From the NCBI GenBank assembly GCA_964016885.1, contig OZ024756.1:33170001-33234000 (forward strand): a stretch of DNA of 64,000 nt, written 5' to 3'. This document shows, piece by piece, positions 1,517 through 55,900 of the stretch. The DNA comes from Eledone cirrhosa (Eukaryota). The translations under genes were made by a program, and so were the position numbers. The first letter of the stretch is position 1; every line of letters begins with the position of its first letter. Below the pieces are notes generated by a model. That model was not told the origin of the DNA. It was given only the letters and a program-made list of their open reading frames with translations, and made no database searches.

Positions 1517-1709
1517 ATAACGAAGGAATTGTGGTAAGTAACCAGGTGGACCATAACGCACCACCATACTCGATACTGGGTAGTAGAGTGGGTAATAAGA
1601 AAAGAGTCAGGACCCCGATGACTGAGCTCCGACCGTTTCGACAACTAGGTCTGAACTAGCTGTCGAAAAGGCCAGAGTCAGACGTCGGGGTCTTCACGCT
1701 TTTCCTATT
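1517..1709 (-). mobile_element. Hairpin-containing TA-embedded repeat family B (putative PLE terminal remnant)
   Basis: Homologous to 10853-10975, 14215-14410 and 42225-42314; palindrome at 1594-1709; flanked by (TA)n. Confidence 0.75.
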
Positions 1710-2671
1710 CTATATATATATATATATATATATATATATATATATATAATAGGAAAAGCGTCAAAAACTTTCATTTATATGTATATATATATATATATAT
1801 TACTTGTGTAAATCTCCTCTCAGTTCAAGAAAGATATCTAGCTCAAAAGCGAATTTATTTCTTGCTGCTCTGGTCCAACGAAACCTATGCCAATACGACT
1901 GTTAGTTCAACATCTTTCCCACTAAGCCACGTGCTTATTATTATATATTCTCCTTATCCTATTCTCTCATTTGTATTTCTGGTTTCATTCTCTTCGATAT
2001 TTAATTCGATTTATTTTATCATCAAGTTCAAACCTGTTCAGCAAGCAACAGACAATATCTTGTTTAACATTCACACTTACACACACACATATATACATAC
2101 ATATACACATACATATATATATATATGTATTTATGTATATATATATATATATATATATATATGTGTGTATGTATGTATGTATTTATATATATATATATAT
2201 ATATATATATACATATATATATATATATACGCATTTGTATAAATATATATATATATGTATTTATGTATATATATACATATATGTGCGTGTGTATGTATGT
2301 CTGCATCTATGTATGTATTTATATATATATATATATATAAATACATACATAGATGCAGACATACATACACACACACATATATATATATATGTGTATGTAT
2401 GTATTTATATATATATATATATATATATATATATATATATATATATATATATATATATATATATATATATATATATATATATATATATATATATATATAC
2501 GTATTTGTATAAATATATATATATGTATTTATGTATATATATATACATATATGTGTGTGTGCGTGTATGTATGTCTGCATCTATGTATGTATTTATATAT
2601 ATATATATATATATATATATATATATATATATATATATATATATATATATAAACTACTTAAATACGGTTGT

Positions 2672-2956
2672 TTAAAATTCAGGAGAGCTTTCCATAATTT
2701 CACGATTCACTAGGCATATACTGTGTTTCAAAATTGTGAGTGAAATAAAATATTTCACTCGTGCATTGTCAACACATACATTATCTTCATCATCACTATC
2801 GATATGAAAATCAATGTCAAAATGATCATCAGCTGCACCACCGTCGACATCATCGCTATCACCCTTATTGGCATCATCATCATCATCACTGTGATCATGG
2901 TCATGACCATCGTTATTATTAGAAAATAAATAATCTTTTTCATTGCTGATCAATGG
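2672..2956 (-). CDS. Candidate terminal coding exon ([27 protein letters not shown]...SSPEF*) of an unknown minus-strand gene
   Basis: Acceptor TTTAACCTTTCAG| directly before the open frame; phase 0 fits the upstream 66-nt exon; the acidic part overlaps degenerate GAT repeats. Confidence 0.4.
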
Positions 2957-5758
2957 CTGAAAGGTTAAATGTCAAATAATTTCTAAGAATGATTTCGTTA
3001 TATTCTCTATCCTGTGAATTTAGGTAGAGTTTGTTATTTCCATTAAAGGTGAATGCAAAAGCTCAGGCAAATGAACAATGTATACGATCACACGCTCACG
3101 AAGCATTCACACAATTGACAGATATACATTTATAAATATAAATGAACGAGTTACTTCACGGTCAGTAGATCTTCAAGAAATAGCAGTCAAATTTTATTTA
3201 TTTTCTATACATAAATAGTAGCTTTGAATATAATATTGCTCTCACTAGCCAATAAAGAATTTCCTTTGCTGTCGCTATTCCTACAATACATAGCAGTTTT
3301 ATAATTCCTCGCATCCTATATTTTCTTTTCATTTGGGATACATTACATTCTTGGGTTCATAAAATAGAAATAATAGCACATTATGATTTTACCATTATGG
3401 CATTCAAATGTAGCTTTTCAAATAAACATTGATTTAACAAGAAAAAATTGTTACTTGTATAATGTTGCTCAAACTGAAACTGGAAGAAAATGAACTTCAT
3501 ATCTCACATCTGAAGCGGTTTAACTGGCTCTGTACCTTTCATGATAGGAACCATAGTCATGTGTAAAGCGTGTAAATTGCTGCATTTTCCTTAAGAACAA
3601 GCCGTACCAACAGCTCCAGGATTAGAACGTGAACACCATTTGACCGTGAATCCAACACAATACCTTCTAAAACGACTACTTTTACTCATTTATTCATATC
3701 AGATTCATTCTTTCCAAACCCTTGCCTGCTGTCATACACATAGAGACATGTAATGGATAATGCAGTTTTGGTTAAAATATATGAGGAAGAAGCAAAAATA
3801 ATGCAAAGATTGGTAGAAGGGGTATTAAATGATAATCGCTTTGTTTGATAAAGTTTGACCTGCGATTAATGAACAAACGTTGTTTGTTTAACTTCCATAA
3901 CTGACCGAAAACATCATAAGCCAGCGAATGGTTTTAAATTGCATTTGTTCTTTACTGATAGATGGACAGTGATGTTTACAGTTTTAGTGTTTCTTCTATA
4001 AATAAAGGGAATATAAAAACATTCTAGACGTCCTTATCTCCGACATACTATGCATACAATTATATATATATACATATATGTATATAAAAAAATATATATA
4101 TGTATATCTATATATATATGTATGTACATATGTATATATATATATATATATATATATATATATATATATATATATACATACATATATATATATATATATA
4201 ATATATATATATATATATATATATATATATATATATATATATATATATATATATATATATATATATATATATATATATATATGTATATATATACACATAT
4301 ATATGTATATATATGTATATATATATATGCATGTGTATATATATATATATATAGATATATATATATATATATATATATAATGCAGGAAGTATTGGAGTAA
4401 TACAACTTTACGTCATACTGTGTAGTCTAGACTGATAAAGGGAGGATAAATGATGTTGTGATATCAGTATGATTGTAAGATATATTCTTCACACTGACAC
4501 ACAAACACACACACACACACACATATATATGTATATATATATGTATATATATATACATATATATATATATATATATATATATATATATATATATATATAT
4601 ATATATATATATATATATATATATATATATATATGGTGTAATGGGAAAAAATCTTTGAGACAACGTAATATGTAATCATTCGCTCGATGAGAGATATTTC
4701 TATAAAATGAAAAAAATAGATTGAAATGCAAATGTAATACATATATAATTACACAAGCTGTTATTAATATGTGTTTGTATATCTATCGTTCTGTCTGTTT
4801 ATCCATCTATCTCCCCCACACACACACACACACTCTCTCTCTCTCGTCTCACTATTTATCTATCTATCTATCTAACAATATATCTCTATATATGTGTGTG
4901 TGTGTGCGTGTTCGTCTGAAGTCTGAGTACATATGTATGAAGTCATACATGTATATATATATATATGACTTCATAGATAGACACTCAGACGCAAATAAAT
5001 ATATATATATATACATACATATATATATATATTATATATATATATATATATGTATATATATATATATATATATATATATATATACATATAAATATATATA
5101 TATATATATATATATATATATATATATATATATATATATATATATATATATATATATATGACTTCATGCATAGACACTCAGAGACAAACAAATACACACA
5201 CACACACACACACACACACACATATATATATATATATATATATTTGATCTATGTATATATGTATAAATGTGTGTGTGTGTGTGTCAGTTTCGTGCGTATA
5301 TTGTCTCGCTAGAAAGAAAAATAAATGAATAAAAAACATATTGTCACGACGCAGATAAAATCCATCTCAAGGAATGAAGTATGAGTTTATGTAAATGGTA
5401 ACTAGTGTGAGCAGACAGCACTATAAATGGTGCTATCACTAACGTATAACTTTCCATAAAATTGTAAATGACATTCACACATAGATTAGAAAGTAGATTG
5501 TGAAAGAAATATTGAAAGTAATTATATATTTATACAATATCTCCTCCAAAGAATACCGAATTGTTGGCATACTAGTTACCTCCATCTCTCAGTGGGGGCC
5601 AAACAAAATGAGAACTTCTCGTATCTAATTCAGCGAGAAACTAACCAATCTATCTGTCATTCTATCTCTCTCTCTCTCTCTCTCTCTCTCTCTCTCTATA
5701 TATATATATATATATATATATATATATATATATATATATATATATATATATATATATA

Positions 5759-53529: not shown

Positions 53530-55225
53530 AATAATAATAATAATAATAATAATAATAATAATAATAATAATAACAGCAACAAGAAAAAAAGAAGAATCAG
53601 AAGAGGATGTGTTATTCCTACAGGTTATTGTGTTGAGCTTCTGGTCATAGGTTGTTGCTATTTTCAATTCCTAAACCGGTCTATGATTCGTGACCTTTGT
53701 CCTAGTGTTCCATCCCAGACTCACATTCATGATAGTACTAGGGGCACTATAATTTTTAGAAAATACGAGAAATCTCCTGTGAGATGAAACCTCGTGGAAT
53801 GCCCGCTAAATCTACATAAGTAATTTTCAGCCCATTTCCTTTTGGCATAACATTCATATAATTCTTAATTCACATGTTTCGTGTGTTAGACACATACAAA
53901 TGAGTTTAAATCTCAAAATGAATGACTGGCTATGCCTAACCTGCGGAGAAACAGCAACGACATAACTAACGAAATAAATATGTTTTTCGATAGAATATAC
54001 AGATTTGTTGTTTCCTTTTATGTATATTAATCAAAACTTCCAGAATTGTGTTTATTCTAAACATCAGTTATAATGTAATGGTACAATAAAGAAAGCGTAT
54101 ATGGTAAATGTTTTTTCTGTACTACATGTAAAGAGTAAAAAGTAACATTACTAAAGGAAAAAAAACATTCAACGTATGACAACGTTATGAAATACGAAAG
54201 AACATAGATAGAGTAACAGGAGTCCGTTTAAACTGAGTTAAGATATACCATATCTTCTGCAAATTCCAGCCGACTGAACCACATCTGCCAGATATGACAC
54301 CACTTCCAACCCGACTGCGGTCTTCAATCTTATTCATAAGAATGTCACTGTTGCAATTATGTCACTGTTGCAATTATATATATATATATGTGTGTGTGTG
54401 TGTGTGTGTGTGCGCGCGTGTGCGCGCGTGTGTGCGTGTGTGTGTGTGTATATGAGTGTGTGTGTGTGTGTGTGTGTGTGTGTGTGTAAAAGGTAAACAG
54501 AAAGAACAACACAATCGGGACAGTATATGAAATACAATATATAATATTAAAACGAAGTCATCGGAAAAACCGATATATCTTCGACCGCTTTCTCACCCAA
54601 TCAATACTTTAATTAAGCCAGCATCCTAAGATACGAACCAAAATGTGAATACGTTAAATATATACATATGTGCATGTGTGTGTGTGTGCGCGTATGCGTG
54701 TATGTATGTATGTGTGTGTTTGTGTGATTGTATTCCTGTATATTTATTTGCCTACTGGTTTCTATGTGCGCATGTATAGGTTTGAAAATATATCCGCTTA
54801 GCATAGTGCTTATGACTTTTACAGAATTAAGTGACAAGTCTGTTAACAAAGCCACTACTTTACACTGTTATTACATAATAGGTAACAGCATTGTAATGAA
54901 GTAATAATGAGTGCTATTCACTAAATTCAATTATTTACAGAAGAATAATTGAATTAGTGTCTCCATTTACAAGCAGCTCTTATCGTTCAACAACATTTGA
55001 TAATACCTTCTATTTGGGTGCGTTTTTTACAAAGTACAGGTAATATTTTCATTATTCACGCAGTTAGTTAATCTTTCTGTTATTGTTCTCGATATTTCTT
55101 CCCCTCTATTTCAATCTCCTTTATCTAATTTCCTAAGTCACACGCACATTATGCAAAAACAAATTCTCTCTCCATTAATATATATATATATATATATATA
55201 TATATATATATATATATATAGTAAA

Positions 55226-55548
55226 ATTATTTCTACTTTTGGCACAAGGCCGACAATTATTCCAGTGCATTACTGGTACTTTATTTTATCGACCTCGTAA
55301 GGATGAAAGGCAAAGTTAACCTTGGCGGGATTTGAACTCATACCATAAAGGGCCGTAACTCTTTGCTGCAAAGTATGGCGTCCGACCCTCTACCGATACT
55401 GCCAATCCACCGCATAATTATTGTTTCTACGTTTGGCACAAGGCCAGTAAATTACCCAGAGCATTACTGGTACTTTATTTTATCGACCCCGTAAGGATGA
55501 AACGCAAAGTTAACCTCGGCGGGATTTGAACTCAGAATGGCAAGGGCC
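55226..55548 (-). mobile_element. Two tandem SINE S1 copies (55226-55412 and 55420-55548)
   Basis: Both match S1. Confidence 0.9.
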
Positions 55549-55900
55549 GATGAATATGAAGACTAAAATCCGAAGAGGGTTTCGATAAGTATAATATATA
55601 TATATAAAATATATAAAACTCGTAGAGCAAATATTTATCAAAATAACAGATTAAAGTTTAAGCAAAGAATCGCTGCTTTCACCCTTAACGGGGGGGGGGG
55701 TGAAAGCAGTGATTCTTTGCTTAAACTTTAATCTGTTATTTTAATAAATATATATATATATATTTAGTTTTGCCGTCTTGAGGGCTCAGGTTATCTTAAC
55801 TGTTAGTCCCCAGTGAAATATGTAAAACGGAGTTTTAAATAAACCTGAATCAACTGAATATGGCCGATCTTTATTAATATAAAAATATATATATGTATGT

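What the first reader, a model, noticed from the sequence alone, without database searches (positions are those of the whole stretch)
1594..55751. Palindromes whose axis is the hammerhead stem II loop (fold-back at the ribozyme)
Seen: family B (1594-1709, 14215-14330) reads TTTC-GACAGCTAATT-loop-AATTAGC.G.C-GAAAC-GGCTTGAGCTCAGCC-GTC-GGGGTC. Family C (44693-44821, 55631-55751) reads TTTC-ACCCTTAAC-loop-GTTAAGGGT-GAAA. 42357-42456 is also bounded by GTTTC...GAAAC. Family B keeps stem II, GAAA, stem III and GUC of an HHR, but the CUGANGA half is replaced by an inverted copy of the downstream sequence. Known: PLE insertions often carry a 5' inverted partial pLTR. Inference: the cDNA stops in stem II, snaps back and self-primes, so the ribozyme hairpin sets the inversion point. 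The same axis in several copies means either repeated events at a fixed site or amplification of a ribozyme-dead palindromic non-autonomous element.
Basis: partly seen in the sequence, partly recalled or inferred. Interest (0 to 1): 0.75.

Follow-up and report, generated by a model that had tools for sequence, protein, structure and literature searches.

The report
Penelope stubs ending at capped start
These short palindromes are two head-to-head stubs of a Penelope-type jumping gene; they do not fold back at the ribozyme but stop at a fixed base carrying an extra G, which is likely the capped start of the element's own RNA, so each stub pair would be two copies run off the end of one messenger and joined.

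Summary
The palindromes are real, but ribozyme stem II does not set the axis. Families B and C are ends of Hydra-clade Penelope-like elements (PLEs); parents with RT and GIY-YIG were found. About 16,400 B and 3,100 C short palindromes match genome-wide. Each pairs a tailed with an untailed arm in (TA)n, and junctions are mostly different. Snap-back fails: 0 of 54 short B pairs keep the parental loop II once, and the untailed arm reaches further in 22 of 59 pairs. Arms stop at a sharp edge on a YYA initiator-like base: inside loop II in B, at stem I in C, 89 nt upstream of the core in control family E. An untemplated G precedes that base (C versus T on the cDNA strand: 87:13 in B, 85:15 in C; 22:73 at a control position), the known footprint of a copied mRNA cap. 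Best reading: two cDNAs from one capped RNA run off its 5' end and are end-joined. The third example (42357) holds no ribozyme part. The scan found the tailed/untailed pattern before on other DNA of this genome; my look-ups showed no note on the capped start. No RNA evidence was available.

The parts
1517..1657 (-). Family B (older subfamily) tailed arm, +100 to -41 from the hammerhead cleavage site; ends exactly on the A of the inferred RNA start
1658..1708 (+). Family B untailed arm (about -30 to +20), then (TA)n
10853..10915 (-).
10916..10975 (+). Family B untailed arm (about -39 to +20); holds sequence absent from its partner, so it cannot be a fold-back copy of it
14215..14269 (-). Family B untailed arm, +20 to -35
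14270..14410 (+). [quoted passage not shown]
42200..42315 (.). Further B-subfamily pair with a different junction (one arm ends in stem III), tail cut short
42357..42419 (-). Family D untailed arm (+80 to +18 from its parent's cleavage site); contains no ribozyme part
42420..42564 (+). Family D tailed arm; parent is a 483-nt tandem unit with a canonical hammerhead upstream of this stretch
42886..42942 (-). Solo untailed arm of family C (-28 to +29)
44693..44762 (-). Family C untailed arm, +29 to -41; keeps the degenerate core and the true short stem II
44763..44903 (+). Family C tailed arm, -30 to +110
55557..55692 (-). Family C tailed arm, +98 to -33
55698..55751 (+). Family C untailed arm, -25 to +29, after a G-run centre
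49286..49487 (+). Family E arm with a canonical CUGAUGA hammerhead; used as control family

Best explanation
Each palindrome is one insertion of a Hydra-clade Penelope-like element made of a tailed and an untailed arm joined head to head in (TA)n, and the arms stop at a fixed initiator-like base that is likely the capped 5' end of the RNA made from the promoter in the pLTR. Shown: parent elements, arm pairing, sharp edge, extra G, diverse junctions. [quoted passage not shown] The axis lies in loop II of family B only because the RNA start lies there. Long copies come from read-through RNA that began further upstream.
For: Parents: L091 and L206 carry RT (DIES, YRDD), CxCX5C linker and GIY-YIG; L206 is pLTR-ORF-pLTR with an inverted tailed copy; C parents carry the same endonuclease type. 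Pairing: 58 of 59 B pairs and 47 of 50 C loci are tailed + untailed. Edge: of 139 B arms from the first 100 of 18,872 matches, 59 end at -45..-40, 2 at -60..-46, 16 run beyond -60; C arms pile at -46 with 7 of 100 further, none past -52 (pattern allowed about -55); E short arms start 0 to +6 of a YCACT motif about 89 nt upstream of the core, and 29 of 30 unselected E arms keep the core. Extra base after the edge on the cDNA strand, C versus T (both untemplated; counted by eye): B 87:13 in the first 100 of 767 rows, C 85:15 in the first 100 of 410 rows, control position -36 in B 22:73 in all 95 rows (Fisher p 2e-20). An extra G marks a copied cap in L1 insertions (PMC11702581, passage). Penelope has its promoter in the pLTR (PMC2377424). 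A PLE protein cuts and extends both strands, starts at two internal sites and uses uncleaved RNA (PMC11167929). One template: long arms pair with long arms (6 long-long, 1-2 mixed; about 12 mixed expected from 16 of 139 by my arithmetic); 56 of 59 pairs share the subfamily letter; 1.1 versus 2.0 differences per 42 nt within versus between copies.
Against: No RNA data: the start site and cap are read from DNA alone. In family E the cap test is inconclusive (by eye 3 unambiguous C, 3 T, 4 A in the first 100 of 622 rows). Many B arms at the edge carry A-runs or match the parent to -45 instead of carrying C (by eye 60 A, 22 C, 13 G, 5 T in the first 100 of 5,064 rows), so two starts (-41, -45) and A-tailing must be assumed. 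10 of the 87 C rows in B could come from microhomology with the partner. No downstream promoter element was recognised and a TATA-like motif is seen in one B subfamily only (by eye; consensus recalled). In B and C the edge is 41-46 nt from the cleavage site in both, so only E separates the two readings clearly. Samples come from the first listed places, mostly contig C1. My parsers missed some partners among 21 unpaired rows.
Confidence: 0.7

Rival explanations
1. One reading: the cDNA stalls in hammerhead stem II, snaps back and self-primes.
For: B axes do fall between the two GAAA copies; 16,390 palindromes have 60 nt or less between them; 27 of 100 C arm ends lie in stem II/loop II.
Against: 0 of 54 short B pairs keep the parental loop once. 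The untailed arm reaches at least 3 nt further than the tailed arm in 22 of 59 B pairs and 21 of 47 C pairs, which a copy of the tailed cDNA cannot do (extreme cases L161 and window 10853-10975). Centres of 0-1 nt occur. E has 1 of 30 junctions in stem II. D's palindrome holds no ribozyme part.
Confidence: 0.03
2. Twin cDNAs as in the best model, but the edge is an uncapped RNA end (nuclease cut, processed end) or a strong RT pause, and the C is the enzyme's own terminal preference.
For: A-runs are common at the edge; no RNA evidence for a cap; family E cap test inconclusive.
Against: The edge sits on YYA in three unrelated families at different places in the RNA; C excess is specific to the edge (versus 72); almost no arm ends in the 15 nt beyond it, which a pause would not give.
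Confidence: 0.15
3. The edge is a 3' splice site (YAG after a pyrimidine run) and the G comes from a short upstream exon or leader.
For: Both B and C edges read Y-rich...YAG; in D. virilis Penelope the intron ends at the 5' end of helix I (PMC4209133, passage), which is where the C edge lies.
Against: The AG is kept in the copies and no constant string longer than one G precedes it in 200 rows read; long arms follow the unspliced parent; E's edge is not at an AG.
Confidence: 0.07
4. A ribozyme-dead palindromic non-autonomous element (or MITE) amplified as a unit.
For: Some centres recur (3 of 38 in B; one C junction type in about 14 of 50).
Against: 35 of 38 and 41 of 50 centres are distinct; the recurring ones occur with tailed and untailed roles swapped and sit on microhomology; ends are asymmetric; arms share subfamily letters within each copy.
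Confidence: 0.05

Closest known systems
Hydra clade of C-terminal EN+ Penelope-like elements (PMC8557442; passages, section 11 and two supplement look-ups read)
   Same: DKT, RW[K/R], CxCX5C linker, CxxC and CxH around the endonuclease E and N, (TA)n targets, hammerhead in the pLTR, inverted 5'-truncated copy and one-sided tail
   Different: B and C ribozyme sequences were not found in that paper's supplement text; tails are 70-80 nt, not 30-40; most sampled B arms are stubs under 150 nt; the paper gives no position or mechanism for the inversion point
Poseidon element of Anolis, in vitro (PMC11167929; parts 1-2 of 4 read)
   Same: Two internal RT starts, both strands cut and extended, uncleaved RNA as template, product length set by the RNA 5' end
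   Different: Different clade; the parts read do not treat inverted junctions or a cap-derived base
L1 twin priming and cap-derived extra G (PMC11702581; passages read)
   Same: Second DNA end primes a second cDNA giving an inversion; extra G at full-length 5' junctions
   Different: In L1 the second priming is at a variable internal site and the arms do not overlap; here both arms start at fixed sites and copy the same stretch to the same end
PLE hammerheads including the U3-A8 variant (PMC4209133; passages read)
   Same: Type I motif, U3-A8 core, palindromic helix III loop, opposite-strand pairs noted
   Different: B has a 37-39 nt loop II that holds the inferred RNA start; C core is CAGAAGA
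Animal non-LTR retrozymes (bioRxiv 10.64898/2026.07.22.740005; part 1 of 5 read)
   Same: Family D parent is a 483-nt tandem unit with one type I hammerhead and PLE-type ends
   Different: B and C are ends of coding elements, not tandem non-coding units

Membership tests
EN+ Penelope-like element | Single ORF with RT and C-terminal GIY-YIG endonuclease upstream of the pLTR | tested here: met
   RT and endonuclease motifs read in L091, L206 and endonuclease in L153, L167; copies have stops and frameshifts; Pfam gave no hit, so the call rests on motifs
EN+ Penelope-like element | pLTR partial tandem, inverted 5' copy, one-sided tail | tested here: met
   L206, L091; 58 of 59 and 47 of 50 tailed + untailed
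Hydra clade | DKT, RWK-type motif, CxCX5C linker, CxxC/CxH, (TA)n insertion | tested here: met
   B: SDKT, RLRWR (R for K), CNCPVRSSC, CNLC, CKH; C: CNCRNRADC, CDLC, CKH
Hydra clade | Placement in an RT phylogeny | not tested
   No reference proteins were aligned
Type I hammerhead ribozyme (parents) | Three stems around a conserved core | tested here: met
   Stems I-III pair in 7 B, 4 C and 1 D natural copies when forced; unconstrained folds do not give the hammerhead; cores U3-A8 or C3-A8 (B), A4 (C), canonical (D)
Type I hammerhead ribozyme (parents) | Self-cleavage | not testable with these tools
   3 of 139 B arms end at -1, no clear excess
Fold-back (snap-back) product at stem II | Parental loop kept once; second arm nested in the first; loop of 3 nt or more | tested here: not met
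   0 of 54; untailed arm longer in 22 of 59; 0-1 nt centres
MITE | Symmetric fixed termini and uniform interior | tested here: not met
   One-sided tail; 35 of 38 and 41 of 50 distinct centres
Capped Pol II transcription start | Untemplated G at the 5' edge on an initiator-like base | tested here: met
   B 87:13, C 85:15, control 22:73; initiator consensus recalled; E inconclusive
Capped Pol II transcription start | RNA 5' ends mapped at that base | not testable with these tools
   No RNA holder listed

The most novel reading that the evidence does not exclude
The Penelope enzyme copies the same capped messenger twice, once from each cut DNA end, from two start signals near the RNA's 5' end, and both copies run off at the cap. 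The element's own promoter therefore yields mainly dead mirror stubs, and only read-through tandem transcripts make full copies, which would explain both the inverted 5' pLTR and the need for partial tandems. In family B the RNA start sits inside the ribozyme's loop II, so the messenger begins with half a hammerhead and cannot cut off its own cap. Tens of thousands of stubs act as a fossil 5' RACE library.
Probability: 0.45. Interest if true: 0.72.

Novelty: new variant of a known kind. Interest (0 to 1): 0.5.

Why it matters
How PLEs make their inverted and tandem ends is named as open in PMC8557442 and PMC2377424. The stubs fix both ends of the template in vivo: two starts and one capped stop. 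That gives exact predictions for the existing in vitro PLE system and for 5' mapping, and a way to read PLE promoters from genome sequence alone. It also warns that these palindromes will be mis-filed as MITEs, microRNA hairpins or ribozyme fold-backs. The architecture itself (inverted copy plus tail) is known.

Tried and rejected
Rfam at E up to 5: the 150 rows shown of 326 were microRNA-type hairpin matches, none a hammerhead. Canonical CTGANGA parent for B: 44 matches, 30 read, all junction accidents. An apparent GTC/ATC difference between arms was query bias: 99 of 100 unbiased rows have GTC. Pfam on three ORF pieces: no relevant hit. I first called the parent Neptune-type; the linker and DKT make it Hydra. 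Family E cap test: inconclusive. Twin bulged hairpins behind the two start sites have the same shape in L091 and L206 but fold no better than shuffles (z -0.4 to -1.1), so they are a lead only. The 2x2 test on arm lengths printed was not properly set up and is not used. First parser overran palindrome centres, second stopped at point mutations; combines them. Paper searches listed no paper that maps PLE inversion points to a capped start; the library lacks most subscription papers. PMC13282606, PMC13000458 and PMC10018344 (passages only) gave nothing on this. Supplements of PMC11167929 and of the bioRxiv preprint were not seen and could bear on the junctions.
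Full report
Observation. Each has a tail beyond one arm and sits in or beside (TA)n. A scan against natural parent copies found two more B pairs in the window (10853-10975, 42200-42315) and a solo C arm. Positions below are counted from the hammerhead cleavage site of each parent.

Parents. A search of the own genome with the 14264-14410 arm returned long copies that continue upstream. 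They show the real ribozyme of family B: stem I, core UUGAUAA (the U3-A8 variant described in PMC4209133) or CUGAGAA, a stem II closed by a 37-39 nt loop, GAAA, stem III with a palindromic loop. L091 and L206 link this end to an RT and GIY-YIG ORF; L206 is pLTR-ORF-pLTR with an inverted tailed copy. DKT, RWR, CxCX5C, CxxC and CxH match the Hydra clade as defined in PMC8557442 section 11; an earlier scan note gave me that lead. Family C parents carry the same endonuclease type and a degenerate ribozyme (core CAGAAGA, 3-bp stem II).

Numbers. 18,872 exact B arm matches, 16,390 short B palindromes, 3,073 short C palindromes, 37,858 arm matches for control family E; reversed controls 0.

Repeated events, not one amplified unit. 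From the first 100 of the 18,872 B matches I fetched all loci and parsed 59 pairs and 21 unpaired rows; several unpaired rows have partners that the parser missed. 58 of 59 pairs are tailed + untailed; 35 of 38 parsed centres differ. In C, the first 50 of 3,073 loci give 47 tailed + untailed and 41 distinct centres; the commonest junction (-43/-39, 3-nt microhomology) occurs with roles swapped.

Snap-back fails. Self-priming on stem II would keep the parental loop once and make the second arm a nested copy of the first. None of 54 short B pairs keeps the loop. The untailed arm reaches at least 3 nt further in 22 of 59 B pairs (tailed in 19, within 2 nt in 18) and 21 of 47 C pairs (tailed in 17). 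Window 10853-10975 is such a case. Perfect palindromes with 0-1 nt centres occur, too tight for fold-back priming. In C, 40 of 50 loci keep the whole core in one arm.

A sharp edge. Of 139 B arms, 59 end at -45..-40, 62 end 3' of that, 2 at -60..-46 and 16 beyond -60. The edge bases are the A's of overlapping TCA/TTA motifs that fit the initiator consensus (recalled). In C the edge is the A at -46, the first base of stem I, with a minor one at -49 (this sample was limited to centres of 60 nt or less). In family E, which has a canonical CUGAUGA core, 29 of 30 unselected arms keep the core and short arms start 0 to +6 of a YCACT motif about 89 nt upstream of it; in 311 palindromes centred there, 3 of the first 100 rows run clearly past that A (by eye). 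So the edge follows the motif, not the ribozyme.

The extra G. Where both arms reach the edge, I compared C and T as the next base on the cDNA strand; neither is templated, and partner sequence favours T. B: 87 C, 13 T in the first 100 of 767 rows; 10 of the C rows could be microhomology. C: 85 C, 15 T in the first 100 of 410 rows. Control at -36 in B: 22 C, 73 T in all 95 rows, 6 of the C rows being one tandem array and 9 point mutants. All by eye; rows from the two strands of one locus are both counted. An extra G at the 5' junction is the accepted mark of a copied cap in L1 (PMC11702581). Against: among all both-full B loci A is the commonest next base (60 of the first 100 rows), explained by extension to -45 and by A-runs; E is inconclusive.

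One template. Long arms pair with long arms: L098, L102, L111, L126, L129 and L077/L078, against L100 and the borderline L104 as mixed pairs. Arms share the subfamily letter in 56 of 59 pairs and differ less within than between copies (1.1 versus 2.0 per 42 nt, 43 pairs). Bursts of one subfamily could give part of this.

Mechanism. PMC11167929 shows a PLE protein cutting and extending both strands, starting at two internal sites and using uncleaved RNA; PMC2377424 places the promoter in the pLTR. Joined with the data here: the start sites lie 60-140 nt from the cap of the messenger, so both cDNAs run off at once and are end-joined into a stub pair; read-through RNA gives long copies such as L206, whose arms pass the start. 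That the template is the 5' end of the coding RNA and not stub-derived RNA is inferred from the constant presence of a tailed arm and from earlier notes on a second hairpin beyond the tail, which I could check only weakly.

Novelty. Inverted copy plus tail is known (PMC8557442). The scan noted the tailed/untailed rule and copying of one RNA onto both ends before, on other pieces of this genome; look-ups for a capped start showed no such note, nor did eight paper searches. Interest 0.5.

Noticed in passing
window 16453-19930 and 20131-23587: A 3.5-kb direct duplication (99%) on both sides of the 200-N gap at 19931-20130; probably an assembly overlap. It duplicates a 302-nt palindrome (17381-17682, 21038-21339).
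   Followed up: partly
window 24600-24957, 42612-42839, 49286-49487: Family E ends with a canonical CUGAUGA hammerhead; 37,858 arm matches genome-wide, many subfamilies sharing a YCACT motif about 89 nt upstream of the core.
   Followed up: partly
L242-L265 (family D): Very young 483-nt tandem unit with one canonical hammerhead and PLE-type tailed/untailed ends; retrozyme-like.
   Followed up: partly
window 37795-37928 and 60229-60340: Two more palindromes with a one-sided tail beside (TA)n; 60229 holds CTGATGA near an arm end. Probably further PLE-type families.
   Followed up: no
L066, L096 and rows: Runs of 5-17 untemplated A at the cDNA 3' end inside B junctions, suggesting terminal transferase activity at the template end.
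   Followed up: partly
L015, L033, L129: A small second group of B junctions near -62 at a CCAGG/CCTGG motif in loop II.
   Followed up: no
L031, L037, L045, L046, L055, L059: B arms joined to foreign, sometimes itself palindromic, sequence in place of a partner arm; possible template switches to other RNAs.
   Followed up: no
window 39202-39763, 49202-49652, 55300-55560: Copies of a different abundant interspersed repeat, some in inverted pairs, with PLE ends inserted beside them.
   Followed up: no
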